64,000 bases of DNA, from assembly GCA_000002435.2 (NCBI GenBank), contig CM018793.1, one strand, 5' to 3'. The position numbers and the translations under genes were made by a program. The notes under the pieces were generated by a model that saw nothing but the letters and a program-made list of their open reading frames with translations, made no database searches and was not told where the DNA came from. This document shows positions 1 to 40,036 of this stretch, piece after piece; the first letter of the stretch is position 1, and the number at the start of each line of letters is the position of its first letter. The DNA is from Giardia intestinalis (Eukaryota).

Positions 1-1
1 C

Positions 2-202
<201 letters not shown>

Positions 203-212: not shown

Positions 213-388
213 TCTCCGCGCATTCTAAGCAGGCCTGCACCTCCGTTTGCCGCTGTGAGTGGTCGTTTGTGACAAGCGCCGGGCCGGGTGTGCACTCCTA
301 GGTTGCCCTGCCTGCTCTGAAGCGGCCTTCCTGATGAACGGGCTGCTACACAACGGAGCACTATCCGGGAAGCACTATCTGTGGTAAG

Positions 389-21781: not shown

Positions 21782-24700
21782 TTACTCATCGGCCCCCGGG
21801 CGGCGCTCGGCCCGCATGCCGCTGTGACTCGGGACCGGGCAGCGACCAGGGAAAGCCTGGGGCCGACCGGGCGCCCCGAAGGCTCTGCTCTCCTGGCTTC
21901 CCCTTACCTGGAAGACAAGGAGTTAGTTTAGCACCTTTTCTGCTGCTAAGCTGCTCTGCCTCCTGCTAGAAGGAAGCGAGTGAGCCCTTGGGTATCCGGT
22001 AAGACTTCTGAGTAAACGAGGTAATGCTTCGGTGAGTGTACGTTAGTCGCATCGGCACAGAGCGCGTACTAATCAGACGAAGTCACATGTCTGCTAACTT
22101 CTATATAATATTCTAAAGCTATCCGGTCTCTGGGTGGCACCGCCAGGTATGTAGCGGGGCCCGTGGCCATTAAGACCCAGAAGGGCCTCCTCTCCTACTT
22201 GGCTCCGGAGTCAGTCCCAGTAGAGCATTGTTATGAGGCTGTTGTGCAGAGAGACACCGAATAGTTTGTACCGGTACACACCCCTTGTCCCCAGACGGCA
22301 CTCACCAGGGGTAGGCATTCGTAGAACCGCAGCATCGTGGGCTTGTGCACCGCTCACTGCCCACACACGTGTAGCTGCAGGCACACAAGCCAGTCGAGAG
22401 GCGCTCGCTTGCCAGAGATCCCTCACCACTGTTCAGAACACCGAACCGACGCTCCTGCCAGCGCGCCGCTCTTTGTAAGATACTCCAGAGAAGCTCAGGC
22501 CGTCGCTCAACAGCGTGCATGCCCGAGGCCTCTGTTTAGAGAACACTGCGCTAGCCTCTGCATGCCTTGAAGGCGCAGAAAAGAGGGTCTACCGATAGAG
22601 CCCTACACCATGTCCAGACATCCATGTTTTCAGAATCTTCGCGCAAGGATAAGAGGTAGAATGGGCAGAGCTCCACTGGCCTCGCGTCATGCAGATAGCG
22701 ATGCTATGCGTACCACATGATTGCATGCCACCGCACGAAGACAAGAGCCTGTATCAGCAGCCGACGGCATTTTACCAGTAGACCGAGGGACATTCCCACA
22801 CTGTACTCAGTCTCTCGCGTAACTTTCAAGCATGTTCGGTCGTGCTGGACGCTGCCTTTAGTTATATCTTGCTGAATAGCCAACGCAGTTGGCAGTGACC
22901 CCAAATATAGTGCGCCTTGCCTAATTCAGACTTCGGGATAGGCGTGTGGAAGACAAGCAGACGCATAGTATGGAGTACAGAGAGCCGTAGAGGCAGTTCT
23001 AAGTGCAGCATAGAGAAGCAGAGTGGGCTGTGGCCTCATGTGGTTAGAGGTATATGAGCGTATAGTCTTCTGTTCAGGACACATATCTTGGGAACCACTG
23101 CGTTGAGTCCTCTAGACCATCACTTGGAGGACGAACCGTCATGCAATGCAGGGCTGCATGCCAAAAGACACATGTCTGTCAGGAGAAGGTCGAAGGACAG
23201 ATCCACAGGCATTGCATGACTTGCTGGCATTCTTCTGTACAGAGCGTAATGCCTCGTGACAGGGAAGTCGTAGTTTTGTCACCAACCCTAATAGGGCTAA
23301 GGCATGGTCAGCGCGGAACTATGCATTCCTGCTGTGGTGCCCACAGAAGTGCTTGTCGAAGAAGATGCTTGCGCTCTCTGAGGGCACACACGAGGAGGAG
23401 CTGTGTAATGCGAAGAGCCTGGCACAGACCTTAAAGGGCTCAGGCTCGTGGTCATAAAAAGTCGCTCCTGCCCGTCTCCGCGGGTACTGCAGTTCTCGAT
23501 GGCGGATCATCGCGTCTTCTCCTTAACCGGCACGTTGGCAACCTGGTCTCTGGCGTAGGCACGCAGAGCATCGGGCCAGAAGCGCCGACTCGTTACCTCC
23601 TTTGCTCGGCCAAGTCCCGTGTTGGCCACAGAACACGCGTGTCTGCCCCCAGTGCGTAGCCGCTGAATCCTCAACAGAGGGACGTGTTCAGAAGTCTACG
23701 CTAACGCAGCCCACTGCAAGCAAAGTTCATCTGTCTCTCAGAGAAGAGGCGGCTGGGCCGTGTGTTGCGCATCAGGAGGCCTTTATGAAGGGCGCCCGCA
23801 CGTCTCGTCACACATGTGCGTCCGAGTGACAAGTAGCAGCCGGCGATACGGCCGCCCTCAGCTTCGCAGACACAGCGGGTGTGCTTACTGGTGTTCAAAG
23901 CAGTATGCCGTTGATCGTGGCATGCCTTTTCTCCAGGAGGGCTGGACGCCACTCGAATTGTGACTGTGTCCCATAGACGGGTGCTCTCCTTGTTACTCTG
24001 TAACACTCGTGCGCATCGGGACCGGCGATTCGCATCTGTGATCCAGACAGGAGCAGCGTCTTGTACTTCCGAGTAAGATGCAGCCGGCCCGCGAGCCTAC
24101 GTGCCGATCTATAGTCTATAACAAGCAAGCGGCAACCACTTGGCGTGCTACTCACGTGGACATTGCAGACTCTGCATCTGAATCGAGAGGCTTGACAGCG
24201 TACCGATTCCACGCTTGGCCGTCATAGGAGCCGGTTCCTTCTGCTTAGTAGCAAGCAGTCAGGCTTTACCGGTAGGAATGATTCGGTATAGTTGAGCGGC
24301 CCGAATAGACCCTAGCGACACCACGGCTTTCTGTTTATATTAAACGCCTTCGCTGTACTGGGGTCTCAGTGAGAAGACAAGCACAGATCCAGGCATGCAA
24401 GCCTTTAGAGATGCGTACTGCACGCAATTCCGGTGTGCTCGCCTGACGAGTCCTACTGCTCTAGCCGGCATACCGTTAGATCCTTCTGTACAGATTGAGC
24501 GAGCAGATATTAGCATACGGGTCACGTTAAGTATCTATGTTCAAGGCAGCTGCTGCTGAACGGGCACACCCAGAGCCACTGTCGCGTAAGATGCCAGCAA
24601 GATTCGCGGCCGCAGAGCACACTGTAATCTGGCGACTGATTTGGTCATGCCGCTCCTTTGTCCGCTGGAAACTCGGCTGGGCGCGGTAGAGAGCGCGTCG

Positions 24701-27700
24701 GGAGAACTCGATGGGAGAGGACTGGCAGGGCTTCCTGCGCCACGAGGGGAGCCACCGCAGGAGGACGCGCAGACACGCACGCCAGGCCACAGTAGACACG
24801 CGGACGCCCCTGTAGACTGGGCTGGCAGCAGGCGTCCGCAGAATCCGCGCCAGAGCCAGCTGCTCAAAAAACTGGGCAGCCTCTGGTCGTGTGCAGGCCT
24901 TGCAGAGCGCTGCGGCTCCCGACACTCGGCGACCCCTCTCAGAGCGGAAGACCCCGCGGGCCGCAGGCAGCAGCTCGTCGTCGGCGATGTCCCGAACGAA
25001 GGGGACGGCCCCAGCCTGCCCGCCTCCGTAGAGCTCTGGGCATCTGCAGACAAACCGGGGCTGCGCAGAGTGCGGCTCTCCCTGGCGGCCGAGGGCGGGG
25101 GTCCTCAGCAATACCAAAAAACTCCGATCAATACATCAGCCCCAGCGCCGCCGTGTGCAAAGCGGTCTGTTCTGTGTGGCGGCCTAAGCCAGCTCGTACT
25201 GCGGCGATGGCCCGGGTGAGGGCGCCCTGCTCGCCCGACGGACCGGGGCAGGCAGGCAACAAACACCCGCTAAAGCTTTTGTGCAAGGCCTGTACATATT
25301 TAATTTCACATTATTCGTTGGTCTGTTTTTAGTTTTATCGCCGCTTCTATCGGATGGGCTCTGGGGCAATGACGGCGGAGACGCGCGCCTCCGTTCTGCT
25401 CGAGCTCGCGAAGCAGGTCGTCGCTGCCCGGCGGCTGGGGGAGACGGCCGAGAGCCTCGCGCGGCGGCCGCTGCTCCTCCACCGGCACGTGCTCCGGACG
25501 GCCATCGACTGGAAGAAGATCGCCCGCGCCCTGTCCGAGGACCGGAGCAGGATCTATCACTGGTACCGCGAGACGCACTCGCGGAGCATCCTCAACGTGA
25601 AGATGACCGGCGAGGACCGCAGGGCCATCAAGGCGATGATCATCGCCGGGGTCAGGGACCGGAGCATCCTGGGCCCGGACTTCTACCGCAGGGTCCACGA
25701 GCGCTTCGGGGCGAAGTATCCGCGCCAGGAGCTGCGGATGACGTACAACAACGCGCTCCGCACCCAGGACGTCCGCGCCGCCCTGGAGGAGCACGGGGTG
25801 GTGCTGCCGCGCCGCACATACGGCCCGAGGGCGGCCAAGCAGGAGGAGGAGGTATCTCCTGTGACGGCCTCTCCCCCGCCCCCCTGCGTTCTTGGTTGCG
25901 CCGCGCCTCCGCTGGTGCCGCCCGTCGGGGGGCCGGTCTTTGTGGCCCCGGGCGCGGTCTCTGCGCTTCTGCCCCCGCACGCGCCGGGGTGCCTCGTCCT
26001 CGCCCTCCCGCCCGGGGTCGTTCCTGGGCCTGGCGTCCTCCCGCTCCAGACGGGCCAGGGTCTCCTCGGGTCGCCCGTTGCATTCGCATGCGTGCCATGC
26101 TTCCCCCCTGCGAGCTACGGAGGCGTGCCTGGGTGCGCTGATGCGAGCCCCAGTAAGGGTTGAGGACTGGAGACCCCGGCTTGCTTGGTGGTTGGCGAAG
26201 AGTGGTCGGTAGGAGCAGCTAATGGCCGGAGCCTGGTCAGTGACGAGACCGTCATGTCTAGAGCGTGCAGCATGCTCAACCACGGCACAGCGCAGGGCCC
26301 ACCAGACGCAGGCTACGACGGTCTGGATGTCGCGCAACCCGCATTCTGCGCATTGCTGAAGAGACCACATACAGCAGACGAAGGCAGGGCTCTTCCATGT
26401 GCCCAGACGACTCGAACACCGCGGTCTGGGCCAACGATCTACCAGACAGGCCCGTCCGGTAACAGGCGACTGAATGCTCTCTGGGCCGTGAGCTAGGACT
26501 GATGTGCAGCTGGCCGGCCACGACATTCACCCTGGCTGGCCCTCTGTCTTCACGCGCCGACACGCCAAGGAGCTGCAGGCCGGCTCTCGACACAGACTGA
26601 TGCTTGTCTCCTTGTTGGCAGGTCGTGAGTGGAAGAGTGGACGCGCTCTGTAAACGGCATACTCGATCCGCTCGTTCGGTGAAGCTTTTATCAAGAAGAG
26701 ATGCGATGATTGTCTCACCAGGCATACTATTGTCTGCGCACCTGTGCCTCAGATGCGGCCACCACGGCGCAGCTGCATCTCCGATCATCCTGGGCACACC
26801 TCCTGGCACGAGCAGGTGCGCCGGAAGGGATGCACTGCCCACCGCCGAGAAATGGATGAACTTCCTTACCCAGGAGCCGGCTGACCACTAGCCGTGCCCA
26901 GCAAACCCCAATAAGCAGGCCTGCTGAGCCAACCCATCCAAGAAGCTGTGTATCCGGAAGAGCTTCGCGTCGAATGGCTCCTTGATTAAAGAAGCTGGCA
27001 TCCAGCGCGGCATGACGACTATCCGCCTGGTGCTGATCTGTCTGCTGGGGAACACGCAGACGCCCTAAGCTCCGTGTGAGCCTATGTTCAAAGCGTCCTT
27101 CACTGGCAGGAGATTCAAGGAACTAGGCGTAGATAGGAAGAGCATTCCCCACTGGTGCCACGAAGTACCGGTATGCTACCTGGCTACACTAATGGCAGCG
27201 AAGAGCACGAGAAGGTCCCAGGGCCTCATCGAGCGGGTCTGCCCCTAGCAGGCCCAAGTAGACGCTCTCTCCAGCAGTGTACAAGAAGCCCGGGAGGGAA
27301 CGCTCGGGTCGGAGCTGGGGTGTTGCTGGTACAGGCTGTCCTTACTGAGTGCATCCCTCAGCGTCCAATAAGTGGAAAAGTGACCGGAGCTAGGTGTGCC
27401 TGCTTCTTCTCTGCCGCCTGCATGTTGTTGCATCTCTAGCTCTTCCTCATTTGTCGAGCGACTGCTCCTTCTGGCTTCTTGCTGGTCCTCGTTCGTCGTG
27501 TAGTCTCTTTTGGAGCTGCTCCCTGGAGGCCGAGCTGACCAGCAACATAGAGGAGCCTCATTCTTAGCTTCACACTCCACAACTGGCCCAGCGACATGTT
27601 GACCATTTTACAAGCAGTTCTGGGTCGCCCAGTCTGGGGCCGGCTGCTGTGCATTCTCTGCTTGACTGCCAGGGTCAGCGTCTGGCCCAGACACTAGATG

Positions 27701-29406
27701 GACAGGAGGCACGGACAAACGCCATTTGCTTGTTGCTTTCATGATCCACGAAGCTGCTGTCTTTATGTGAATCTCGACCCAGGTCGGTCTCCGTTGTAAG
27801 TGCAACGGTCTTGCGCATGCAATCTGGAGGATCTACGTTAGAGAATCGAGCCGAGCAATCCTTGTTAGCGCCTGCCATCCGACGTCTCTGTTGTTGAACT
27901 GGCCTGTAGAAGTCCGCTATAGGCCCTCAGACTCTTTGTCTGTGAGGTCCTTCATACTGGCCGGCCTGTCCTCGCAGAGCGCACTAAGTGCCCACCTATA
28001 ACGCATGTCGGCGGCAGACTCCTCGGGAGCAATTTGCGGGGGTCTCGATGGGGTGGCCGACGCCCAGTGAACGACTCCAAGCCACCCTTTAGTGTCTGCG
28101 CTGTCGCTCCACGAGAGTGCGTAGTGGGATGCAGCCGGAATCCCCGTGTGCGGGGGCCGACAGTCAACGGCAGAAAGTTCGGCACCCCGTGTTCCCACGA
28201 CGTCTCCGATCGCAGTACTGGCGGGGCCTGACGGCGCTTCTCTTCTTAATTCGGAACGAGTTAAGGAGTTTCCGCCGTAGGATGGCCGAACTGGCGGCTG
28301 AGGGAGCTGTGCGATGCGTCAGAGACTGTTAGAGATTCATATTGTGTATTGTGCAATGACCGATATGCATGGGTGTCCCACCGAAGACCCGGTGAAGGAT
28401 GGCACCGGAGATGAGACAGGATGACCCCTGGTGGAGGAGACCACGGTGCGGGCTTGCCTGCAGATGCCGTGACTAAAATCTCAGCCCGTCCAGGAGTTTA
28501 ACGGAGGTCATGCGACCGAATACCGAGGCCTACCGGAGAGCCGCATCGCCCCTGCACGAGCCAGCAAGCACTGCCTTCGACCCGACCACAGTTGAGAGCG
28601 CCCATGTCCGTGGATGCCGTCGGTCAGGTCCCTGAAGACCACCCTGCTCACAGCCCCAGGGATCCTCTGCAGACTCTGATTTCTATATCCCTGGGGTAGA
28701 TGTTTGCAGATAGCGGCACAGGGCTCAGCAAAACCGCCAGAAGATCCGCAGCACACTGTCATTAACCATGACGTCCTGTGGTATTCATTCCATGGCTAAG
28801 CCACCAATAATGGCACTGGAACTGGAGTAAGACACTTCTAGGGTGCGACTACAGGACCGTGGAGGAGCTTCCTTCCCACGAAGGAGACCCTGCAGCTAGG
28901 GCGTGGTCCATCAACTCTTAGCACTGCACACCTTGGTAGAAGCAGAGCCAAGCCCACACTTAGAAATCGATGGCTGCTCTGTTGGACCCCGCACACGATG
29001 CTAGCTATAGAAAAGAGCCCGGGCAAGGAGATCACGCGGACCAGGTGTACCCGGACTGAGAAGCGTCTACTTTATCAAGTAACGGTAACCGGTCTATGCA
29101 CACAGATCATGTTTGGCGACAAGCTCCCCTGTAGCTCATGTATACACTGCGAACCGCTGCTTAGAAGCCTGCGTTGGAGATGCTGCAAGACACCAATGGC
29201 TGAAAGGTGTGACTAGCCGTTCTTCCAGCTATCATCTCTCTGGATGCGCCGGGTACTTAAGGTGATAGTCCAGCATTGCACGCCTTGACTGCCACGGGCC
29301 TTGTGCATAGCCGACCAGGTGCCCGACACACGCCGCTTAGGAGTGCCCAGACCCCACGGTGCTGTAGTTGGGCTGCTAGGATGCGAGAGGTGGTGCACAG
29401 AGGCGC
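21782..29406. repeat. left arm of about 7.6-kb near-perfect inverted repeat (palindrome centre 30291.5)
   Basis: The reverse complement of 31177..38801 matches this arm. Outer-boundary bases were checked (21782-21792 TTACTCATCGG pairs with 38791-38801). At the inner boundary the first mismatch is at 29407. Every six-frame ORF in this arm has an exact mirror on the opposite strand, with about 10 single amino-acid differences in total across the paired ORFs I compared (e.g. 23760.. Q vs R; 25306.. K vs E; 26276.. E vs G). Confidence 0.95.
25354..26163 (+). CDS. possible Myb/SANT-like DNA-binding protein inside GC-rich island (left-arm copy); 3' half proline-rich low complexity
   Basis: An ATG at 25354 is immediately preceded by an AT-rich stretch (25281-25353, ...ttaatttcacattattcgttggtctgtttttagttttatc...) in otherwise roughly 70% GC DNA. 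Two Myb-repeat-like units are present: ...DWKKIARALSEDRSRIYHWYRETH and TGEDRRAIKAMIIAGVRDRSILGPDFYRRVHERFGAKYPRQELRMTYNNAL. All other frames are also open here because of the GC richness, so ORF length alone is weak evidence. Confidence 0.35.
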   Translation: MGSGAMTAETRASVLLELAKQVVAARRLGETAESLARRPLLLHRHVLRTAIDWKKIARALSEDRSRIYHWYRETHSRSILNVKMTGEDRRAIKAMIIAGVRDRSILGPDFYRRVHERFGAKYPRQELRMTYNNALRTQDVRAALEEHGVVLPRRTYGPRAAKQEEEVSPVTASPPPPCVLGCAAPPLVPPVGGPVFVAPGAVSALLPPHAPGCLVLALPPGVVPGPGVLPLQTGQGLLGSPVAFACVPCFPPASYGGVPGCADASPSKG

Positions 29407-30131
29407 ATATTAGAGTCAAGATCCATGTATTTCGCCTGCCCAGGTGGGCAGAAATGTTAGAGCGTCTAGACGGACTTAGTGCGTATCGCCCGAAAGTGAA
29501 GAAGCTGTTCGTGTAGGATCTGCATCGAACAGTCGCGTCACTGAGAGAGGAGGCTCATGTCTTCTTATGACCAAGGAGCCTAGCAACAACATTTACACAG
29601 CAATGCATACTATCGCAATGGACTTTCCTTGTGGGCAGTGTTAAAATGTTCATGTGCCATGTCGTGAGGCCATGTCACATTCTGCATCTCCTGCGCCAAC
29701 GTCATCGCTGCCTATTAGTGCAGAACCTGGCTATCTTGGAAGGCTTCCTCAAGTTCGTCTATACCTTTCTCGAAGAGGGTCCTTGGTAGTGGAGCCAGCT
29801 TTATGAGTGCTGTCCACCTCCTAGCAGAGCAAATTGACGGATGATGCACATGCGGGCTATACACTTTTCCGAAGCTTGTAGGGTACGGTGTTATGGTGGC
29901 TTTAACGATACACAAGCCATGCCCACCTGCAATAGATAGCCTCGATAGGATGCTCTTGAGTAGGGCACCAGTCAGCTGTCAGTCCTTGGGTACCGCAGAA
30001 AAGCACCAGTGCCTTCTTGTTCTGCACTGCAGCGTGCTCACAGCGACACGCTGAAGGATGCATGCGACCCGGTGGAGGCGGCTTCCACTGCTATCTGATC
30101 GCCCCTTAGTGTGAGCGTGATTCGGCGGGCA

Positions 30132-30947
30132 ATGTTGTACTTGGCAGGTTTAGCATTCGCTTACTTGGCGCTTGCCGATCCAAAATCGTGCACCAACTCT
30201 CAAAATTGTGCATCTGGAACTAACTGTCTAGATGTCAATATAAATGGCCAGCAAAAAGAGATTTGCACAAAATGCGAGGCCACCCACGTCCCGGTCGAGG
30301 GGGCGTGCCAGGCGAAGGACGGGCAGGACAAGTGCACGCCGCAGGACGCCCCCGACGGGACCTGCAAGGCGTGCCAGGGGAGCACCTACCTCTACAGCGG
30401 AGGATGCTACGCCGCGTGCCCCGACGGATTCTACGGAAAGGGCGACAACACATGTGCCAGCTGTGATAGCTCCTGTGACAAGTGCGAGGCCAAGACTCCC
30501 ACGAGCTCACGCTGTACGAAGTGCGCTGTCACCCACGTCCCGATCGACGGGGCCTGCGAGACCATAGCCGCCGCAGGGGCCAAGTGCACGGCCAAGAGCA
30601 CCCCCGACGGCACGTGCCAGTCGTGCAAGGGAGAGAACTATCTATACAGAGGCGGCTGTTATGTCTCGTGCCCTCAGGGAACACCAAACTCTGAGACTAA
30701 CACATGCGATGGAGTCCCCGCCCCTGATTGCAATCTTCCTAACTGCAAGTCATGTCCTGGCGGCACGTGCACAGAGTGTAACGACGGATTTGTTCTAGGT
30801 GATGATAAAAATTGCGTGCCTTCTAGCGTCAACAAGAGCGGGCTCTCCACTGGCGCCATAGCGGGCATCGCCGTGGCCGCTATTATTGTCGTCGGGGGTC
30901 TCGTCGGTTTCCTCTGCTGGTGGTTTATCTGCAGGGGGAAGGCATAA
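30132..30947 (+). CDS. variant-specific surface protein (VSP), small, complete
   Basis: The ATG at 30132 gives the signal peptide MLYLAGLAFAYLALA. The ORF's nominal start at 30111 is GTG. The protein has many CXXC/CxC motifs (KCEATHVPVEGAC, CKACQGSTYLYSGGCY, GGCYVSCPQG). The C-terminus is the canonical TM plus tail, GAIAGIAVAAIIVVGGLVGFLCWWFICRGKA, followed by a stop. AGTAAAC lies at 30956-30962. Confidence 0.9.
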   Translation: MLYLAGLAFAYLALADPKSCTNSQNCASGTNCLDVNINGQQKEICTKCEATHVPVEGACQAKDGQDKCTPQDAPDGTCKACQGSTYLYSGGCYAACPDGFYGKGDNTCASCDSSCDKCEAKTPTSSRCTKCAVTHVPIDGACETIAAAGAKCTAKSTPDGTCQSCKGENYLYRGGCYVSCPQGTPNSETNTCDGVPAPDCNLPNCKSCPGGTCTECNDGFVLGDDKNCVPSSVNKSGLSTGAIAGIAVAAIIVVGGLVGFLCWWFICRGKA

Positions 30948-30955
30948 ATTTAGGT

Positions 30956-30962
30956 AGTAAAC
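30956..30962 (+). promoter_or_regulatory. AGTAAAC polyadenylation signal 9 nt after the VSP stop
   Basis: Read directly from the sequence. Confidence 0.6.
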
Positions 30963-31176
30963 GTGTCTCCTATTACACCCACTTACTCCATAGTTTCGAC
31001 GCCGCTATTCTACGAGGTCGCTGAGTTACCTGTCTCCGAGCATCCACTGGATTCTGTGGCAGGACCGCGCCTCCATGTTTTGCCGTGCCCGCTTCTGTAT
31101 GGCAATGAGCACCCCCTACTATTGTACAACTATTCCACCCAGAGGCAGGCGACACACAGACCCTTGGCTCTGATAG

Positions 31177-34100
31177 GCGCCTCTGTGCACCACCTCTCGC
31201 ATCCTAGCAGCCCAACTACAGCACCGTGGGGTCTGGGCACTCCTAAGCGGCGTGTGTCGGGCACCTGGTCGGCTATGCACAAGGCCCGTGGCAGTCAAGG
31301 CGTGCAATGCTGGACTATCACCTTAAGTACCCGGCGCATCCAGAGAGATGATAGCTGGAAGAACGGCTAGTCACACCTTTCAGCCATTGGTGTCTTGCAG
31401 CATCTCCAACGCAGGCTTCTAAGCAGCGGTTCGCAGTGTATACATGAGCTACAGGGGAGCTTGTCGCCAAACATGATCTGTGTGCATAGACCGGTTACCG
31501 TTACTTGATAAAGTAGACGCTTCTCAGTCCGGGTACACCTGGTCCGCGTGATCTCCTTGCCCGGGCTCTTTTCTATAGCTAGCATCGTGTGCGGGGTCCA
31601 ACAGAGCAGCCATCGATTTCTAAGTGTGGGCTTGGCTCTGCTTCTACCAAGGTGTGCAGTGCTAAGAGTTGATGGACCACGCCCTAGCTGCAGGGTCTCC
31701 TTCGTGGGAAGGAAGCTCCTCCACGGTCCTGTAGTCGCACCCTAGAAGTGTCTTACTCCAGTTCCAGTGCCATTATTGGTGGCTTAGCCATGGAATGAAT
31801 ACCACAGGACGTCATGGTTAATGACAGTGTGCTGCGGATCTTCTGGCGGTTTTGCTGAGCCCTGTGCCGCTATCTGCAAACATCTACCCCAGGGATATAG
31901 AAATCAGAGTCTGCAGAGGATCCCTGGGGCTGTGAGCAGGGTGGTCTTCAGGGACCTGACCGACGGCATCCACGGACATGGGCGCTCTCAACTGTGGTCG
32001 GGTCGAAGGCAGTGCTTGCTGGCTCGTGCAGGGGCGATGCGGCTCTCCGGTAGGCCTCGGTATTCGGTCGCATGACCTCCGTTAAACTCCTGGACGGGCT
32101 GAGATTTTAGTCACGGCATCTGCAGGCAAGCCCGCACCGTGGTCTCCTCCACCAGGGGTCATCCTGTCTCATCTCCGGTGCCATCCTTCACCGGGTCTTC
32201 GGTGGGACACCCATGCATATCGGTCATTGCACAATACACAATATGAATCTCTAACAGTCTCTGACGCATCGCACAGCTCCCTCAGCCGCCAGTTCGGCCA
32301 TCCTACGGCGGAAACTCCTTAACTCGTTCCGAATTAAGAAGAGAAGCGCCGTCAGGCCCCGCCAGTACTGCGATCGGAGACGTCGTGGGAACACGGGGTG
32401 CCGAACTTTCTGCCGTTGACTGTCGGCCCCCGCACACGGGGATTCCGGCTGCATCCCACTACGCACTCTCGTGGAGCGACAGCGCAGACACTAAAGGGTG
32501 GCTTGGAGTCGTTCACTGGGCGTCGGCCACCCCATCGAGACCCCCGCAAATTGCTCCCGAGGAGTCTGCCGCCGACATGCGTTATAGGTGGGCACTTAGT
32601 GCGCTCTGCGAGGACAGGCCGGCCAGTATGAAGGACCTCACAGACAAAGAGTCTGAGGGCCTATAGCGGACTTCTACAGGCCAGTTCAACAACAGAGACG
32701 TCGGATGGCAGGCGCTAACAAGGATTGCTCGGCTCGATTCTCTAACGTAGATCCTCCAGATTGCATGCGCAAGACCGTTGCACTTACAACGGAGACCGAC
32801 CTGGGTCGAGATTCACATAAAGACAGCAGCTTCGTGGATCATGAAAGCAACAAGCAAATGGCGTTTGTCCGTGCCTCCTGTCCATCTAGTGTCTGGGCCA
32901 GACGCTGACCCTGGCAGTCAAGCAGAGAATGCACAGCAGCCGGCCCCAGACTGGGCGACCCAGAACTGCTTGTAAAATGGTCAACATGTCGCTGGGCCAG
33001 TTGTGGAGTGTGAAGCTAAGAATGAGGCTCCTCTATGTTGCTGGTCAGCTCGGCCTCCAGGGAGCAGCTCCAAAAGAGACTACACGACGAACGAGGACCA
33101 GCAAGAAGCCAGAAGGAGCAGTCGCTCGACAAATGAGGAAGAGCTAGAGATGCAACAACATGCAGGCGGCAGAGAAGAAGCAGGCACACCTAGCTCCGGT
33201 CACTTTTCCACTTATTGGACGCTGAGGGATGCACTCAGTAAGGACAGCCTGTACCAGCAACACCCCAGCTCCGACCCGAGCGTTCCCTCCCGGGCTTCTT
33301 GTACACTGCTGGAGAGAGCGTCTACTTGGGCCTGCTAGGGGCAGACCCGCTCGATGAGGCCCTGGGACCTTCTCGTGCTCTTCGCTGCCATTAGTGTAGC
33401 CAGGTAGCATACCGGTACTTCGTGGCACCAGTGGGGAATGCTCTTCCTATCTACGCCTAGTTCCTTGAATCTCCTGCCAGTGAAGGACGCTTTGAACATA
33501 GGCTCACACGGAGCTTAGGGCGTCTGCGTGTTCCCCAGCAGACAGATCAGCACCAGGCGGATAGTCGTCATGCCGCGCTGGATGCCAGCTTCTTTAATCA
33601 AGGAGCCATTCGACGCGAAGCTCTTCCGGATACACAGCTTCTTGGATGGGTTGGCTCAGCAGGCCTGCTTATTGGGGTTTGCTGGGCACGGCTAGTGGTC
33701 AGCCGGCTCCTGGGTAAGGAAGTTCATCCATTTCTCGGCGGTGGGCAGTGCATCCCTTCCGGCGCACCTGCTCGTGCCAGGAGGTGTGCCCAGGATGATC
33801 GGAGATGCAGCTGCGCCGTGGTGGCCGCATCTGAGGCACAGGTGCGCAGACAATAGTATGCCTGGTGAGACAATCATCGCATCTCTTCTTGATAAAAGCT
33901 TCACCGAACGAGCGGATCGAGTATGCCGTTTACAGAGCGCGTCCACTCTTCCACTCACGACCTGCCAACAAGGAGACAAGCATCAGTCTGTGTCGAGAGC
34001 CGGCCTGCAGCTCCTTGGCGTGTCGGCGCGTGAAGACAGAGGGCCAGCCAGGGTGAATGTCGTGGCCGGCCAGCTGCACATCAGTCCTAGCTCACGGCCC

Positions 34101-37100
34101 AGAGAGCATTCAGTCGCCTGTTACCGGACGGGCCTGTCTGGTAGATCGTTGGCCCAGACCGCGGTGTTCGAGTCGTCTGGGCACATGGGAGAGCCCTGCC
34201 TTCGTCTGCTGTATGTGGTCTCTTCAGCAATGCGCAGAATGCGGGTTGCGCGACATCCAGACCGTCGTAGCCTGCGTCTGGTGGGCCCTGCGCTGTGCCG
34301 TGGTTGAGCATGCTGCACGCTCTAGACATGACGGTCTCGTCACTGACCAGGCTCCGGCCATTAGCTGCTCCTACCGACCACTCTTCGCCAACCACCAAGC
34401 AAGCCGGGGTCTCCAGTCCTCAACCCTTACTGGGGCTCGCATCAGCGCACCCAGGCACGCCTCCGTAGCTCGCAGGGGGGAAGCATGGCACGCATGCGAA
34501 TGCAACGGGCGACCCGAGGAGACCCTGGCCCGTCTGGAGCGGGAGGACGCCAGGCCCAGGAACGACCCCGGGCGGGAGGGCGAGGACGAGGCACCCCGGC
34601 GCGTGCGGGGGCAGAAGCGCAGAGACCGCGCCCGGGGCCACAAAGACCGGCCCCCCGACGGGCGGCACCAGCGGAGGCGCGGCGCAACCAAGAACGCAGG
34701 GGGGCGGGGGAGAGGCCGTCACAGGAGATACCTCCTCCTCCTGCTTGGCCGCCCTCGGGCCGTATGTGCGGCGCGGCAGCACCACCCCGTGCTCCTCCAG
34801 GGCGGCGCGGACGTCCTGGGTGCGGAGCGCGTTGTTGTACGTCATCCGCAGCTCCTGGCGCGGATACTTCGCCCCGAAGCGCTCGTGGACCCTGCGGTAG
34901 AAGTCCGGGCCCAGGATGCTCCGGTCCCTGACCCCGGCGATGATCATCGCCTTGATGGCCCTGCGGTCCTCGCCGGTCATCTTCACGTTGAGGATGCTCC
35001 GCGAGTGCGTCTCGCGGTACCAGTGATAGATCCTGCTCCGGTCCTCGGACAGGGCGCGGGCGATCTTCTTCCAGTCGATGGCCGTCCGGAGCACGTGCCG
35101 GTGGAGGAGCAGCGGCCGCCGCGCGAGGCTCTCGGCCGTCTCCCCCAGCCGCCGGGCAGCGACGACCTGCTTCGCGAGCTCGAGCAGAACGGAGGCGCGC
35201 GTCTCCGCCGTCATTGCCCCAGAGCCCATCCGATAGAAGCGGCGATAAAACTAAAAACAGACCAACGAATAATGTGAAATTAAATATGTACAGGCCTTGC
35301 ACAAAAGCTTTAGCGGGTGTTTGTTGCCTGCCTGCCCCGGTCCGTCGGGCGAGCAGGGCGCCCTCACCCGGGCCATCGCCGCAGTACGAGCTGGCTTAGG
35401 CCGCCACACAGAACAGACCGCTTTGCACACGGCGGCGCTGGGGCTGATGTATTGATCGGAGTTTTTTGGTATTGCTGAGGACCCCCGCCCTCGGCCGCCA
35501 GGGAGAGCCGCACTCTGCGCAGCCCCGGTTTGTCTGCAGATGCCCAGAGCTCTACGGAGGCGGGCAGGCTGGGGCCGTCCCCTTCGTTCGGGACATCGCC
35601 GACGACGAGCTGCTGCCTGCGGCCCGCGGGGTCTTCCGCTCTGAGAGGGGTCGCCGAGTGTCGGGAGCCGCAGCGCTCTGCAAGGCCTGCACACGACCAG
35701 AGGCTGCCCAGTTTTTTGAGCAGCTGGCTCTGGCGCGGATTCTGCGGACGCCTGCTGCCAGCCCAGTCTACAGGGGCGTCCGCGTGTCTACTGTGGCCTG
35801 GCGTGCGTGTCTGCGCGTCCTCCTGCGGTGGCTCCCCTCGTGGCGCAGGAAGCCCTGCCAGTCCTCTCCCATCGAGTTCTCCCGACGCGCTCTCTACCGC
35901 GCCCAGCCGAGTTTCCAGCGGACAAAGGAGCGGCATGACCAAATCAGTCGCCAGATTACAGTGTGCTCTGCGGCCGCGAATCTTGCTGGCATCTTACGCG
36001 ACAGTGGCTCTGGGTGTGCCCGTTCAGCAGCAGCTGCCTTGAACATAGATACTTAACGTGACCCGTATGCTAATATCTGCTCGCTCAATCTGTACAGAAG
36101 GATCTAACGGTATGCCGGCTAGAGCAGTAGGACTCGTCAGGCGAGCACACCGGAATTGCGTGCAGTACGCATCTCTAAAGGCTTGCATGCCTGGATCTGT
36201 GCTTGTCTTCTCACTGAGACCCCAGTACAGCGAAGGCGTTTAATATAAACAGAAAGCCGTGGTGTCGCTAGGGTCTATTCGGGCCGCTCAACTATACCGA
36301 ATCATTCCTACCGGTAAAGCCTGACTGCTTGCTACTAAGCAGAAGGAACCGGCTCCTATGACGGCCAAGCGTGGAATCGGTACGCTGTCAAGCCTCTCGA
36401 TTCAGATGCAGAGTCTGCAATGTCCACGTGAGTAGCACGCCAAGTGGTTGCCGCTTGCTTGTTATAGACTATAGATCGGCACGTAGGCTCGCGGGCCGGC
36501 TGCATCTTACTCGGAAGTACAAGACGCTGCTCCTGTCTGGATCACAGATGCGAATCGCCGGTCCCGATGCGCACGAGTGTTACAGAGTAACAAGGAGAGC
36601 ACCCGTCTATGGGACACAGTCACAATTCGAGTGGCGTCCAGCCCTCCTGGAGAAAAGGCATGCCACGATCAACGGCATACTGCTTTGAACACCAGTAAGC
36701 ACACCCGCTGTGTCTGCGAAGCCGAGGGCGGCCGTATCGCCGGCTGCTACTTGTCACTCGGACGCACATGTGTGACGAGACGTGCGGGCGCCCTTCATAA
36801 AGGCCTCCTGATGCGCAACACACGGCCCAGCCGCCTCTTCTCTGAGAGACAGATGAACTTTGCTTGCAGTGGGCTGCGTTAGCGTAGACTTCTGAACACG
36901 TCCCTCTGTTGAGGATTCAGCGGCTACGCACTGGGGGCAGACACGCGTGTTCTGTGGCCAACACGGGACTTGGCCGAGCAAAGGAGGTAACGAGTCGGCG
37001 CTTCTGGCCCGATGCTCTGCGTGCCTACGCCAGAGACCAGGTTGCCAACGTGCCGGTTAAGGAGAAGACGCGATGATCCGCCATCGAGAACTGCAGTACC

Positions 37101-38801
37101 CGCGGAGACGGGCAGGAGCGACTTTTTATGACCACGAGCCTGAGCCCTTTAAGGTCTGTGCCAGGCTCTTCGCATTACACAGCTCCTCCTCGTGTGTGCC
37201 CTCAGAGAGCGCAAGCATCTTCTTCGACAAGCACTTCTGTGGGCACCACAGCAGGAATGCATAGTTCCGCGCTGACCATGCCTTAGCCCTATTAGGGTTG
37301 GTGACAAAACTACGACTTCCCTGTCACGAGGCATTACGCTCTGTACAGAAGAATGCCAGCAAGTCATGCAATGCCTGTGGATCTGTCCTTCGACCTTCTC
37401 CTGACAGACATGTGTCTTTTGGCATGCAGCCCTGCATTGCATGACGGTTCGTCCTCCAAGTGATGGTCTAGAGGACTCAACGCAGTGGTTCCCAAGATAT
37501 GTGTCCTGAACAGAAGACTATACGCTCATATACCTCTAACCACATGAGGCCACAGCCCACTCTGCTTCTCTATGCTGCACTTAGAACTGCCTCTACGGCT
37601 CTCTGTACTCCATACTATGCGTCTGCTTGTCTTCCACACGCCTATCCCGAAGTCTGAATTAGGCAAGGCGCACTATATTTGGGGTCACTGCCAACTGCGT
37701 TGGCTATTCAGCAAGATATAACTAAAGGCAGCGTCCAGCACGACCGAACATGCTTGAAAGTTACGCGAGAGACTGAGTACAGTGTGGGAATGTCCCTCGG
37801 TCTACTGGTAAAATGCCGTCGGCTGCTGATACAGGCTCTTGTCTTCGTGCGGTGGCATGCAATCATGTGGTACGCATAGCATCGCTATCTGCATGACGCG
37901 AGGCCAGTGGAGCTCTGCCCATTCTACCTCTTATCCTTGCGCGAAGATTCTGAAAACATGGATGTCTGGACATGGTGTAGGGCTCTATCGGTAGACCCTC
38001 TTTTCTGCGCCTTCAAGGCATGCAGAGGCTAGCGCAGTGTTCTCTAAACAGAGGCCTCGGGCATGCACGCTGTTGAGCGACGGCCTGAGCTTCTCTGGAG
38101 TATCTTACAAAGAGCGGCGCGCTGGCAGGAGCGTCGGTTCGGTGTTCTGAACAGTGGTGAGGGATCTCTGGCAAGCGAGCGCCTCTCGACTGGCTTGTGT
38201 GCCTGCAGCTACACGTGTGTGGGCAGTGAGCGGTGCACAAGCCCACGATGCTGCGGTTCTACGAATGCCTACCCCTGGTGAGTGCCGTCTGGGGACAAGG
38301 GGTGTGTACCGGTACAAACTATTCGGTGTCTCTCTGCACAACAGCCTCATAACAATGCTCTACTGGGACTGACTCCGGAGCCAAGTAGGAGAGGAGGCCC
38401 TTCTGGGTCTTAATGGCCACGGGCCCCGCTACATACCTGGCGGTGCCACCCAGAGACCGGATAGCTTTAGAATATTATATAGAAGTTAGCAGACATGTGA
38501 CTTCGTCTGATTAGTACGCGCTCTGTGCCGATGCGACTAACGTACACTCACCGAAGCATTACCTCGTTTACTCAGAAGTCTTACCGGATACCCAAGGGCT
38601 CACTCGCTTCCTTCTAGCAGGAGGCAGAGCAGCTTAGCAGCAGAAAAGGTGCTAAACTAACTCCTTGTCTTCCAGGTAAGGGGAAGCCAGGAGAGCAGAG
38701 CCTTCGGGGCGCCCGGTCGGCCCCAGGCTTTCCCTGGTCGCTGCCCGGTCCCGAGTCACAGCGGCATGCGGGCCGAGCGCCGCCCGGGGGCCGATGAGTA
38801 A
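31177..38801. repeat. right arm of the inverted repeat
   Basis: Same evidence as the left arm. An example single-nucleotide mismatch between arms is 23860 (A) versus 36723 (C, where G was expected). Confidence 0.95.
34420..35229 (-). CDS. right-arm mirror copy of the possible Myb/SANT-like ORF
   Basis: Its 269-aa translation is identical to that of 25354..26163. Confidence 0.35.
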   Translation of the reverse strand: MGSGAMTAETRASVLLELAKQVVAARRLGETAESLARRPLLLHRHVLRTAIDWKKIARALSEDRSRIYHWYRETHSRSILNVKMTGEDRRAIKAMIIAGVRDRSILGPDFYRRVHERFGAKYPRQELRMTYNNALRTQDVRAALEEHGVVLPRRTYGPRAAKQEEEVSPVTASPPPPCVLGCAAPPLVPPVGGPVFVAPGAVSALLPPHAPGCLVLALPPGVVPGPGVLPLQTGQGLLGSPVAFACVPCFPPASYGGVPGCADASPSKG

Positions 38802-38962: not shown

Positions 38963-40036
38963 ATGTGTAAATTCCACGGTATTGGTCGGTGCTGTGGCAA
39001 AAGGGGCATTCGAGGGCAAGACTTCGGCTGTTTTCTTGGAACAGTGGTGGTGTATATCCTTTATTGTATTCTAACTTGCGTTGTCCTCGCTAGAGAGAGT
39101 CAACGTGTTCTTACCCCCTACGTTTCGTATGGAGTTACAATAGCTACATGTATTCTTTGTGTAACACTTTATTTACTTGCTGGAATCACAGATCCAGGAT
39201 ATATGCCTGTCTGTTCAAATGATAGGTTCAACGCGAGGTCTGAAGTGGGGATCATAAGCCCCTATACAGTGGGAAATTTGGCAGGAACCGCTGTTTATTG
39301 TACTACTTGTAACATATTCAGGCCTCCAGGCACCTCCCATTGTGATGATTGTGGCCACTGCATAGTGTATTTTGACCACCATTGTCCGTGGGTTGGAACA
39401 GACGTAGGACTTCGTAATTATGGGTACTTTGTTTGCTCCATGCTCGGAATCCTGATCTATTGCGGTTGGGTTCTTACACATGCAGTTGTTTGTTTCGTTG
39501 CTATTGAACCAACAGTCCCCACTATAGTGGTGTGTCTCCTCTGTGCTATAGGAAGTCTCTTTGGGATATGTTTCAGCGTAGGAATGGGCTGCGCAAACCT
39601 TCGCTTGATACTAAAAGATACCTCTACTCGAGCATACAAGCGAGGACGGTCTAGTGCAACTGAGCAAGTAAAACAGATGCATACAGTGGATGCTCCAGAC
39701 AATGATTCACAAGATGGCACAGAGCCAGCTAATCTATATGACTCGATGTCAGCGCAAGGTAATAAGGACACTCTTGTGCTTTCTTCATCGGAAGCAAAGT
39801 CAAAGATGGAATCGGAGAATCTTCCTAGCTCCTATGGAGTTTCCCAAAATAGGGTCGTGGAGATCCTCACAACTATACAGAACACATGGACGTACAAGCA
39901 CATCCGTCATTTAGGGTGGCGGCGTGTCTTTTTAGGTAGATATATGCCTCAACTTATAGACCTGTCGGCCCAGGAAGCTGAGGAAATTGCATGGGTATGG
40001 ACAGTTGTGCTATGCTCCAGTGACCCGCTTGTGTAG
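38963..40036 (+). CDS. DHHC-type protein S-acyltransferase (palmitoyltransferase)
   Basis: The DHHC cysteine-rich domain reads CTTCNIFRPPGTSHCDDCGHCIVYFDHHCPWVGTDVGLRNYGYF. There are four hydrophobic TM segments, two before and two after the DHHC domain. The ATG at 38963 was verified and is preceded by a 160-nt AT-rich region. Confidence 0.9.
   Translation: MCKFHGIGRCCGKRGIRGQDFGCFLGTVVVYILYCILTCVVLARESQRVLTPYVSYGVTIATCILCVTLYLLAGITDPGYMPVCSNDRFNARSEVGIISPYTVGNLAGTAVYCTTCNIFRPPGTSHCDDCGHCIVYFDHHCPWVGTDVGLRNYGYFVCSMLGILIYCGWVLTHAVVCFVAIEPTVPTIVVCLLCAIGSLFGICFSVGMGCANLRLILKDTSTRAYKRGRSSATEQVKQMHTVDAPDNDSQDGTEPANLYDSMSAQGNKDTLVLSSSEAKSKMESENLPSSYGVSQNRVVEILTTIQNTWTYKHIRHLGWRRVFLGRYMPQLIDLSAQEAEEIAWVWTVVLCSSDPLV

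What the first reader, a model, noticed from the sequence alone, without database searches (positions are those of the whole stretch)
29407..31176. Loop of the palindrome carries decayed symmetry plus an asymmetrically placed, intact VSP gene
Just inside the arm boundaries, residual inverted similarity persists (29401-29450 vs 31130-31176; for example TCGCCTGCC is retained while flanking bases differ). This implies the palindrome was once longer and its centre has diverged or been replaced. The intact VSP (signal peptide, CRGKA, AGTAAAC) is not centred on the symmetry axis at 30291.5, which falls inside the gene. This is consistent with the VSP being inserted or exchanged into a pre-existing palindrome. 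A cassette-like VSP exchange site would be noteworthy.
Basis: partly seen in the sequence, partly recalled or inferred. Interest (0 to 1): 0.55.

Follow-up and report, generated by a model that had tools for sequence, protein, structure and literature searches.

The report
Giardia palindrome with VSP spacer
A surface-antigen (VSP) gene of the gut parasite Giardia lies in the 1.8-kb unique centre of a real, conserved 7.6-kb inverted duplication. Recombination keeps the two arms almost identical, and the "decayed symmetry" is the ragged inner edge of that recombination, not proof of a cassette-exchange site.

Summary
The arms are 21782-29406 and 31177-38801, with 2 mismatches in 7625 nt. Just inside them, 34 nt (29407-29440) resemble the reverse complement of 31144-31176 and end in TCGCCTGCC (0 of 1000 shuffles reach the anchored score). 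Nothing deeper in the loop is symmetric.

The window is Giardia intestinalis WB, on the 4.02-Mb chromosome. The loop VSP (30132-30947) is intact. Each arm carries a 5S rRNA gene and a 269-aa gene from a dispersed Giardia-only family.

The palindrome and a VSP at the same position also occur in sub-assemblage AII (isolate DH plus an independent assembly), so neither is an artefact or a recent insertion. WB and DH are about 98.8% identical in the flanks, 96.9% in the outer arms and 88-93% in the inner arms and loop. The WB arms are 99.97% identical to each other, which indicates concerted evolution.

The edge of arm identity lies 83 nt further out in AII. The two arm-end haplotypes are joined to opposite loop ends in WB and AII, switching at TCGCCTGCC. 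This points to recombination at the junction.

The VSP is a mosaic: one module is 95-100% identical to a paralogue at another locus. Homology to other VSP loci stops well inside the loop, and those loci have no palindrome. The cassette-exchange idea is only partly supported. Interest is moderate.

The parts
21782..29406 (.). Left arm of the palindrome (7625 nt). It starts 29 nt upstream of the start codon of GL50803_0021082 (13732-21753, minus strand).
   Evidence: reverse complement of 31177-38801 with 2 mismatches (23860, 26394). Short-read contigs from the left flank in several samples stop 30-235 nt inside it.
31177..38801 (.). Right arm of the palindrome. It ends 162 nt upstream of the DHHC palmitoyltransferase gene (38963-40036).
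   Evidence: Contigs from the right flank in 20 or more samples stop 30-230 nt inside it, and that sequence is the reverse complement of the left-flank contig ends.
29407..29440 (.). Left 'decayed symmetry' zone, haplotype a (ATATTAGAGTCAAGATCCATGTATTTCGCCTGCC). The last 9 nt, TCGCCTGCC (29432-29440), are the switch point.
   Evidence: Anchored alignment, 0 of 1000 shuffles. Four- and six-way alignments with the AII sequences.
31144..31176 (.). Right 'decayed symmetry' zone, haplotype b (reverse complement CTATCAGAGCCAAGGGTCTGTGTGTCGCCTGCC). GGCAGGCGA lies at 31144-31152.
29324..29406 (.). Innermost 83 nt of the WB arms (mirror: 31177-31259). Identical on both arms in WB. In AII genomes the two arms differ at 16 sites within 29324-29363.
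   Evidence: the WB state at these sites, relative to the two AII arms, reads aaababbbbbaaaaaa. Runs test P = 0.047.
29441..31143 (.). Spacer core (1703 nt), single copy with no internal symmetry. It has the opposite orientation, relative to arm-end haplotypes a and b, in WB and in AII genomes.
30132..30947 (+). Intact VSP gene (271 aa; KAE8305781.1 / XP_037902336.1), with two ~83-aa modules. The candidate initiator CAatgTT spans the start codon.
   Evidence: Module content compared with DH. Mosaic similarity to paralogues.
30956..30962 (+). AGTAAAC, the Giardia-type polyadenylation signal, 8 nt after the stop codon. Homology to paralogous VSP loci ends at 30965-30966.
   Evidence: Read directly from the sequence. 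Homology end. That AGTAAAC is the polyadenylation signal comes from general knowledge, not from a test here.
29543..29690 (+). Upstream loop segment shared at 95% with the upstream region of a paralogous VSP at a different DH locus (L006).
28174..28293 (-). 5S rRNA gene in the left arm, transcribed away from the loop.
   Evidence: Rfam RF00001, 88.3 bits. Identical in DH although the surrounding DNA is about 91% identical.
32290..32409 (+). 5S rRNA gene in the right arm, transcribed away from the loop.
25354..26163 (+). 269-aa gene in the left arm, not annotated in this copy and transcribed towards the loop. It belongs to a Giardia-only multicopy family. The N-terminal 150 aa are helical and the rest is Pro-rich and disordered.
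34420..35229 (-). The same 269-aa gene in the right arm (GL50803_00137682, KAE8305782.1), transcribed towards the loop.
23046..27034 (.). Dispersed repeat unit of about 4 kb inside the arm (mirror: 33549-37537). It also occurs as a solo copy at another DH locus.
   Evidence: 95% over 3.08 kb; 86.8% over 4.1 kb, with an abrupt left boundary; no terminal repeats.

Best explanation
This is a long-lived inverted segmental duplication (a large palindrome) on the 4.02-Mb chromosome of Giardia intestinalis WB. Its 1.77-kb unique spacer holds one complete, apparently expressible VSP gene.

The arms are kept nearly identical by arm-to-arm gene conversion. The 34-nt 'decayed symmetry' is the frontier of that conversion. 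It is old arm sequence lying just beyond where conversion tracts now stop, so it has diverged into two haplotypes, a and b, that differ by about 30%.

The frontier is not fixed. In sub-assemblage AII the arms already differ 83 nt further out. The frontier has also been a crossover point. Relative to a and b, the spacer has the opposite orientation in WB and in AII, and the switch lies in the last shared 9 nt (TCGCCTGCC), where homology ends. The simplest history is one spacer inversion with breakpoints at the end of homology (or an equivalent reciprocal exchange of the arm ends), plus one extension of a conversion tract.

The VSP has occupied the spacer since before the AI/AII split. It evolves as other VSPs do, through gain or loss of modules and segmental conversion from paralogues.

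Shown: the anatomy, conservation in AII, concerted evolution of the arms, the haplotype swap and the mosaic VSP. Inferred: the recombination mechanisms and the order of events.
For: Identity and reality of the locus:
- The window is the WB reference.
- The palindrome is real. Contigs from both flanks in many independent short-read assemblies end 30 nt (k-1) to 235 nt inside the arm, with mutually reverse-complementary ends.
- The DH 454 contig runs left flank, arm, loop with VSP, then 509 nt of the opposite arm.

Concerted evolution:
- WB arms differ at 2 of 7625 nt.
- WB against DH is 98.7-98.9% identical in the flanks, 96.9% in the outer arm, 91.3% in the inner arm and 88-93% in the loop.

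The frontier:
- The anchored similarity is significant, while the deeper loop and the outer boundary show none.
- In DH and in an independent SPAdes contig (99.84% identical to DH), the arms differ in blocks at 29324-29363 and 29407-29434.

The swap:
- WB has a joined to loop-left and b to loop-right. DH and the ERZ19219916 contig have b joined to loop-left and a to loop-right. The switch falls within TCGCCTGCC.

The VSP:
- A VSP lies at the same position in DH, 74-100% identical at the protein level over the shared modules and lacking one module.
- WB 30367-30726 is 95-100% identical to a DH paralogue at another locus.

Literature context:
- Inverted VSP duplications and recombination among vsp genes (PMC2996952).
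- 6.9% of the WB genome is duplicated and 5S genes are internal (PMC7000408).
- Inversions enriched for VSPs (PMC7048089).
Against: - The WB linkage (a to loop-left) rests on one assembly, the window itself. I could not retrieve an independent AI contig across the junction.
- The orientation of the DH centre relative to the flanks cannot be determined from 454 reads across 7.6-kb arms. So it is open whether one inversion or a reciprocal exchange (two events) occurred.
- Recombination or branch migration through a zone that is 30% diverged, or at 9 bp of identity, is inefficient. The mechanism of the swap therefore remains uncertain.
- Without an outgroup, it is not resolved whether WB extended the arm identity inward or AII lost it. 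The mosaic pattern gives only P = 0.047.
- The high WB-DH divergence of the inner arms and loop could also reflect an old polymorphism or introgression, rather than fast local evolution.
Confidence: 0.72

Rival explanations
1. Cassette-exchange site. A pre-existing palindrome has a centre into which VSP cassettes are inserted or swapped, using the arm-end sequences as junctions.
For: - Loop content differs between isolates, and the arm-end haplotypes are re-associated with the loop ends exactly at a short inverted repeat.
- Part of the VSP is nearly identical to a paralogue elsewhere.
- 29543-29690 and 29866-30966 behave as a VSP-linked unit found at other loci.
Against: - AII carries the same VSP lineage at the same place.
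- Paralogue homology ends 100-180 nt inside the junctions, and TCGCCTGCC with its neighbours is not found at the paralogous loci.
- Those loci have no inverted repeats.
- The sequences on either side of the VSP unit are not symmetric, as they would be after insertion into a continuous palindrome.
Confidence: 0.12
2. Site-specific invertible element. The 1.7-kb spacer is flipped by a dedicated recombinase acting on the 9-bp inverted repeat TCGCCTGCC/GGCAGGCGA, as in bacterial phase-variation switches.
For: - A perfect 9-bp inverted repeat sits exactly at the point where linkage switches between lineages.
- A conserved gene of unknown function with a helical, possibly DNA-binding domain lies in each arm.
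Against: - No recombinase, integrase or transposase domain was found in the 269-aa protein or in any arm ORF.
- The VSP's own upstream region (690 nt, with the candidate initiator) lies inside the spacer, so flipping would not switch a promoter.
- Only one difference between lineages is documented, not switching.
- The 9-mer is simply the last conserved piece of the decayed arm.
Confidence: 0.06
3. Composite-transposon-like mobile unit. The arms are two inverted copies of a mobile element that captured a VSP.
For: - About 4 kb of each arm (23046-27034) is a dispersed repeat that carries a multicopy gene found on at least four WB chromosomes.
- One pair of identical copies on the 1.97-Mb chromosome (GL50803_0060974 and d60974) flanks exactly one annotated gene.
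Against: - The dispersed unit covers only about half of the arm and has no terminal repeats.
- There is no target-site duplication at the outer arm ends (...CAGCTT | arm ... arm | GTATTT...).
- No transposase-like domain was found.
- The solo DH copy lacks a 5S gene.
- In assemblage E the sequence next to DHHC is already arm-like and collinear, which suggests old local DNA.
Confidence: 0.04
4. Assembly artefact. The palindrome was created by chimeric or fold-back long reads in the PacBio assembly.
For: Near-perfect long palindromes are a known artefact class of long-read assemblies (general knowledge).
Against: - A unique 1.77-kb spacer with a complete gene.
- Two arm mismatches.
- A decayed junction.
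- The same structure in the DH 454 assembly and in a SPAdes assembly.
- Flank contigs from many samples share reverse-complementary arm ends.
Confidence: 0.02

Closest known systems
Identical inverted vsp gene pairs of Giardia WB (Adam et al. 2010, PMC2996952; Xu et al. 2020, PMC7000408)
   Same: - Same organism and the same genomic habit: inverted duplications around VSP genes with near-identical copies.
- Identity ends abruptly.
- The spacers are kilobases long.
- These structures broke the older assemblies. This VSP carries only an accession from the 2020 assembly.
   Different: - In the pairs the VSPs are the arms (two identical ORFs, 2-4 kb apart). Here no VSP-like sequence is in the arms and a single VSP is in the spacer.
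- The arms here are much longer (7.6 kb) and carry a 5S rRNA gene and a 269-aa gene.
Large sex-chromosome palindromes of primates (human Y P1-P8 and X palindromes), maintained by arm-to-arm gene conversion
   Same: - Arms more than 99.9% identical within a genome but diverged between lineages (concerted evolution).
- A unique spacer.
- Structural change concentrated at the spacer and inner arms.
- Spacer inversions produced by recombination between the arms.
The comparison rests on general knowledge of that literature.
   Different: - Much smaller scale (7.6 kb against tens of kb to Mb).
- An asexual or rarely sexual tetraploid protist.
- The gene of interest is in the spacer rather than the arms.
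Expression-site or cassette systems of antigenic variation (Borrelia vlsE/vmp, trypanosome VSG)
   Same: A variant surface antigen gene bounded by repeats, with segmental conversion from paralogues producing a mosaic gene.
   Different: - No shared upstream or downstream homology blocks at the junctions.
- No evidence of a single expression site or of different cassettes at this site.
- Giardia VSP switching is reported to be epigenetic, not recombinational (PMC2996952).

Membership tests
Giardia variant-specific surface protein (VSP) | Conserved C-terminal region ending in CRGKA, preceded by a transmembrane segment | tested here: met
   The protein ends ...GAIAGIAVAAIIVVGGLVGFLCWWFICRGKA*. 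Pfam PF03302, E = 2.9e-28.
Giardia variant-specific surface protein (VSP) | N-terminal signal peptide, Cys-rich ectodomain with CXXC and GGCY motifs | tested here: met
   The protein has a hydrophobic N-terminus (MLYLAGLAFAYLALA), 32 Cys, 8 CXXC and 2 GGCY. The signal peptide was judged by eye, not with a predictor.
Giardia variant-specific surface protein (VSP) | Candidate initiator PyAatgTT at the start codon and a long non-coding upstream region (features of expressed or first-in-array vsp genes, PMC2996952) | tested here: met
   GGGCAATGTTG at 30132, with 690 nt of spacer upstream.
Identical inverted vsp pair (Adam 2010; Xu 2020) | Two identical VSP ORFs, head-to-head or tail-to-tail, forming the repeated arms | tested here: not met
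   tblastn with about 180 VSPs finds VSP-like sequence only at 30015-30944 and 338-1156, and none in the arms.
Large palindrome maintained by arm-to-arm gene conversion | Arms far more similar within a genome than orthologous arms are between lineages | tested here: met
   99.97% between the WB arms, against 96.9% (outer arm) and 91.3% (inner arm) for WB versus DH. Flanks are 98.7-98.9%.
Large palindrome maintained by arm-to-arm gene conversion | The structure is shared by diverged lineages, so it is not a recent duplication that is identical simply because it is young | tested here: met
   DH contig L015 and ERZ19219916 contig L023 have inverted arm ends around the same spacer. Only the inner 170-509 nt of the second arm is seen in these assemblies.
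Cassette-exchange / expression site for antigen genes | Conserved junction (homology) blocks shared between the site and the donor loci | tested here: not met
   Homology to loci L006 and L007 is confined to 29543-29690 and 29866-30966, and none reaches 29407-29542 or 30967-31176. Only two donor-like loci could be examined.
Cassette-exchange / expression site for antigen genes | Different cassettes at the same site in different clones or isolates | tested here: not met
   DH and ERZ19219916 carry the same VSP lineage in the same spacer, differing in module number and by 7-12%. Only AI and AII were sampled.
Site-specific invertible switch | Dedicated recombinase encoded nearby | tested here: not met
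   No Pfam hit for any arm ORF. The 269-aa protein model has no significant PDB match; the best is E = 0.24.
Site-specific invertible switch | Both orientations present within a clonal population | not testable with these tools
   This needs raw long reads of WB that span the spacer and the arm ends.
Composite transposon | Terminal repeats of the element, a target-site duplication and a transposase | tested here: not met
   No terminal repeats in the dispersed unit, no direct repeat at the outer arm ends and no transposase domain.

The most novel reading that the evidence does not exclude
The spacer may be a recombinationally invertible VSP segment. Recombination at the inner ends of the arms would flip the VSP relative to its surroundings, between lineages and perhaps within populations. 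The 269-aa gene in each arm is transcribed towards the spacer. Read-through from one arm would then give sense VSP RNA and from the other antisense, and a transcript crossing both arms would fold into a 7.6-kb hairpin. Spacer orientation could therefore feed into RNA-based or chromatin-based control of this VSP, with the outward-facing 5S (Pol III) genes acting as boundaries. Other copies of the arm element, such as the GL50803_0060974/d60974 pair that flanks one gene, might form similar units.
Probability: 0.07. Interest if true: 0.7.

Novelty: new member of a known kind. Interest (0 to 1): 0.35.

Why it matters
Giardia VSP regions are gene-poor, repeat-rich and structurally unstable, and how the repertoire diversifies is still open. 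This locus gives a dated example between AI and AII. The arms evolve in concert. The edge of gene conversion has moved by 83 nt. The arm ends have changed partners with the spacer at the exact end of homology. The VSP in the spacer has gained or lost a module and shares a near-identical segment with a paralogue. This makes recombination around a single VSP directly checkable with existing long-read data. It does not show a new mechanism of antigenic variation.

Tried and rejected
- **Symmetry deeper in the loop.** An unanchored local alignment of the two loop halves was not significant. I rejected the idea that the whole loop is a decayed palindrome centre.
- **Tandem repeats in the loop.** TRF found none. 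The two VSP modules are too diverged for it and were found by BLAST and protein comparison instead.
- **Other RNA genes in the arm.** A permissive Rfam search found only the 5S gene.
- **VSP remnants in the arms.** None were found.
- **Pfam on arm ORFs.** No hits. The long GC-rich ORFs (406 aa and others) are not in the protein collection and look like composition artefacts. Only the 269-aa ORF is a real gene.
- **Structure of the 269-aa protein.** The N-terminal model is confident, but no significant fold match was found; the weak Reb1 and SNAPc Myb hits were not relied on.
- **Exact look-ups in the WB reference.** Look-ups of the WB VSP and of paralogues P0146 and P0149 failed, apparently because the 2020 WB assembly is not indexed there. 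So I could not inspect the 60974/d60974 pair or any other WB copy of the arm element.
- **Metagenome scan.** A search for the junction sequence gave 0 hits.
- **Literature.** Searches for the arm gene IDs, and for 5S + VSP + inverted, gave 0 papers.
- **Phasing the AII arms.** I tried using the ERZ19219916 right-arm contig against the DH left arm (98.3%). This was inconclusive because the two isolates also differ by 0.5% in the flanks.
Full report
**Where the window comes from**

The loop protein is identical to VSP KAE8305781.1 / XP_037902336.1 of Giardia intestinalis WB clone C6, on a 4,018,654-bp chromosome. The left neighbour is GL50803_0021082 (13732-21753, minus strand). The right neighbour is a DHHC palmitoyltransferase (38963-40036). 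The window is therefore part of the 2020 PacBio reference (PMC7000408).

**Checking the observation**

The repeat finder reports one inverted pair, 21782-29420 / 31163-38801. A base-by-base check shows the arms are 21782-29406 and 31177-38801, with two mismatches (23860, 26394). Mismatches then appear at 29407, 29411 and 29416, and the register is lost after 29420.

An alignment anchored at the arm ends and extended inward scores 23 over 41-42 nt. In 1000 shuffles the mean is 0.85 and the maximum 9.

The similarity stops there. The best unanchored alignment of the two loop halves is no better than shuffles. The outer arm boundary is abrupt.

The VSP (30132-30947) is intact:
- Pfam VSP, E = 2.9e-28.
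- 32 Cys, 8 CXXC, 2 GGCY and a CRGKA end.
- The candidate vsp initiator CAatgTT, and AGTAAAC 8 nt after the stop (motif definitions in PMC2996952).

**What the arms are**

The arms contain no VSP-like sequence. Each carries:
- A full-length 5S rRNA gene (28174-28293 minus strand, 32290-32409 plus strand, 88 bits), transcribed away from the loop.
- A 269-aa gene (25354-26163 plus strand, 34420-35229 minus strand), transcribed towards the loop.

The right-arm copy of the 269-aa gene is annotated as GL50803_00137682. The gene belongs to a 90%-identity cluster with members on at least four WB chromosomes. One identical pair, GL50803_0060974 and d60974, has accession numbers that leave room for exactly one gene between them.

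The family is Giardia-specific, with members in assemblages A, B and E and paralogues at 35-65% identity. It has no Pfam domain. An AlphaFold model gives a confident helical N-terminal 150 residues and a disordered Pro-rich tail, with no significant PDB match.

About 4 kb of the arm (23046-27034) recurs as a solo copy at another DH locus. That copy has no 5S gene and no inverted repeat, and the unit itself has no terminal repeats. The other long ORFs in the GC-rich part of the arm have no Pfam hit and no database counterpart.

**Is the palindrome real and conserved?**

Short-read assemblies (Logan) from many samples yield contigs from the right flank that stop 30-230 nt inside the arm. Contigs from the left flank stop 30-235 nt inside it. 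The two sets of ends are reverse complements of each other. Thirty nucleotides is k-1 for those assemblies, as expected at a repeat boundary.

The 454 assembly of isolate DH (sub-assemblage AII) has a contig (L015) that runs from the left flank through a whole arm and a loop with a VSP in the same place. It continues 509 nt into the opposite arm, around a 1522-nt spacer. An independent SPAdes contig (L023, sample ERZ19219916) is 99.84% identical to the DH centre and also ends in inverted arm sequence.

In assemblage E (P15), the DNA next to the DHHC gene is collinear with the outer end of the right arm at 74% identity.

The structure is therefore not an artefact, and it predates the AI/AII split.

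**Concerted evolution and fast divergence**

WB-DH identity by region:

| Region | Identity |
|---|---|
| Left flank | 98.7% |
| Right flank | 98.9% |
| Outer arm | 96.9% |
| Inner arm (from about 27951) | 91.3% |
| Loop | 88-93% |

The two WB arms are 99.97% identical to each other. Arms that diverge between lineages yet stay identical within a genome are the signature of arm-to-arm gene conversion.

The 5S gene is identical in WB and DH in the middle of the most diverged arm segment. The 269-aa ORF is intact in DH. Both therefore look functional.

**The junction**

Aligning the inner arm ends of WB, DH and L023 shows two things.

1. The edge of arm identity has moved. In AII the two arms already differ in a block at 29324-29363 (16 sites) as well as at 29407-29434. 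The boundary of perfect identity therefore lies 83 nt further out than in WB. In WB the first block is identical on both arms. Relative to the two AII arms it reads as a patchwork (aaababbbbbaaaaaa). This is weakly non-random (runs test P = 0.047), as patchy repair of heteroduplex DNA would give. Without an outgroup the direction of change is not settled.

2. The 34-nt zone exists as two haplotypes that differ by about 30%: a (ATATTAGAGTCAAGATCCATGTATTTCGCCTGCC) and b (CTATCAGAGCCAAGGGTCTGTGTGTCGCCTGCC). Both occur in both lineages with only 1-2 changes, so they are older than the split.
   - In WB, a adjoins the left loop end (CAGGTGGGCAGAAATG...) and b adjoins the right.
   - In DH and L023, b adjoins the left loop end and a adjoins the right.
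   - The change of partner falls within the shared TCGCCTGCC.

Each linkage lies within a single read length, so it does not depend on how an assembler crossed the arms. The orientation of the DH centre relative to the flanks does depend on that and is unknown.

Two histories fit:
- If the real AII centre is reversed relative to the flanks, one inversion of the 1.7-kb spacer with breakpoints at the end of homology explains everything, together with one extension of a conversion tract.
- If the DH contig is right, a reciprocal exchange of the arm ends is needed. This could be two inversions with different breakpoints, or a symmetric heteroduplex repaired towards the invading strand on both arms.

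Either way, the 'decayed' zone is the recombination frontier of the palindrome.

**The VSP itself**

DH has the positional counterpart (P0004 / L015). It is 190 aa from the same start and has one ~83-aa module where WB has two.

Window by window, WB 30367-30726 is 95-100% identical to a 362-aa DH VSP at a different, non-syntenic locus (L006), and that similarity is higher than to the positional counterpart. Upstream, 29543-29690 is also shared with L006 at 95%. A third locus (L007) shares 29866-30966 at about 82%.

The gene is thus a mosaic shaped by module gain or loss and by conversion among paralogues, as reported for vsp genes in general (PMC2996952). The shared unit runs from at least -266 (in patches to -589) to +19 relative to the coding region. 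It stops 100-180 nt short of the palindrome junctions. Neither paralogous locus has inverted repeats.

**Comparison with what is known**

Giardia WB is known to have 14-19 inverted pairs of identical VSP genes separated by 2-4 kb (PMC2996952; PMC7000408). It also has 6.9% duplicated sequence, ten internal 5S genes and many predicted inversions enriched for VSPs (PMC7048089).

The present locus is the reverse arrangement. The VSP is in the spacer, and the arms carry a 5S gene and a dispersed 269-aa gene. I found no paper describing it.

Mechanistically it behaves like the large palindromes of primate sex chromosomes: near-identical arms, a unique spacer and change concentrated at the spacer and inner arms. 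That comparison rests on general knowledge. It fails the tests for a VSP pair, a cassette-exchange site, a recombinase-driven switch and a composite transposon (see the membership table).

**Verdict**

The junction is a recombination site and the loop differs between isolates. There is no evidence that VSP cassettes are swapped in and out, or that the palindrome centre was once much longer.
- It is a new member of a known kind, of moderate interest. Its main value is as a well-defined locus where existing long-read data could show whether a VSP-bearing spacer flips.

**Limits**

- The 2020 WB assembly could not be queried beyond the window, so other copies of the arm element were not inspected.
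- The WB junction linkage rests on the window alone.
- No assemblage B centre or assemblage E centre was available.

Noticed in passing
window 25354-26163 (+) and 34420-35229 (-): A 269-aa gene (GL50803_00137682) belongs to a Giardia-only multicopy family with no Pfam domain. It has a strongly conserved helical N-terminal 150 aa (invariant HWYRET...ELRMTYNN) and a disordered Pro-rich tail. Only the right-arm copy appears to be annotated in the reference. Weak, non-significant fold hints point to Myb-like DNA binders (Reb1, SNAPc).
   Followed up: partly
not in the window: GL50803_0060974 / GL50803_00d60974 (KAE8302586.1, KAE8302588.1) on the 1,973,847-bp WB chromosome: Two identical copies of the arm gene have accession numbers that leave exactly one gene (KAE8302587) between them. 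This could be a second palindrome with a single gene in its spacer. The reference assembly could not be queried, so it was not checked.
   Followed up: no
window 23046-27034 (mirror 33549-37537); L022 7692-11731: A dispersed repeat of about 4 kb carries the 269-aa gene and is present as a solo copy at another DH locus (95% over 3.08 kb). Its left boundary is abrupt, it has no terminal repeats, and no 5S gene accompanies the solo copy.
   Followed up: partly
window 27951-27961 versus L015 3507-3625: DH has an insertion of about 110 nt relative to WB exactly where WB-DH identity of the arm drops from about 97% to about 91%. The inner 1.45 kb of each arm plus the loop therefore behaves as a separately evolving block of about 4.7 kb.
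   Followed up: partly
window 38963-40036 (+): A DHHC palmitoyltransferase gene starts 162 nt outside the right arm. VSP tails (CRGKA) are palmitoylated according to PMC2996952. The proximity is probably coincidental and was not examined.
   Followed up: no
window 1-200 and 341-1159 (+): The window begins with the C-terminus of a beta-tubulin gene (...[14 protein letters not shown]). This is followed by a Cys-rich VSP-like reading frame, interrupted upstream by stop codons, that ends ...WWLLCRGKAHQCPIKR*. CRGKA is therefore not terminal, so this is a pseudo-VSP or a high-cysteine membrane protein.
   Followed up: partly
window 30263-30421 versus 30513-30682: The WB VSP contains two diverged copies (about 70-82% nt identity) of a ~250-nt module (CTKCE.THVP..GAC...YLY.GGCY..CP). 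DH has a single hybrid copy, consistent with unequal recombination within YLY.GGCY. The DH paralogue P0001 (362 aa) appears to have three copies.
   Followed up: partly
L001, L016, L021 (ends at window 22011-22016 / 38567-38572): Several short-read contigs extend 230-235 nt into the arm instead of stopping 30 nt inside it. All end at the same point, which suggests a second repeat boundary or a polymorphic site about 230 nt inside the arm.
   Followed up: no
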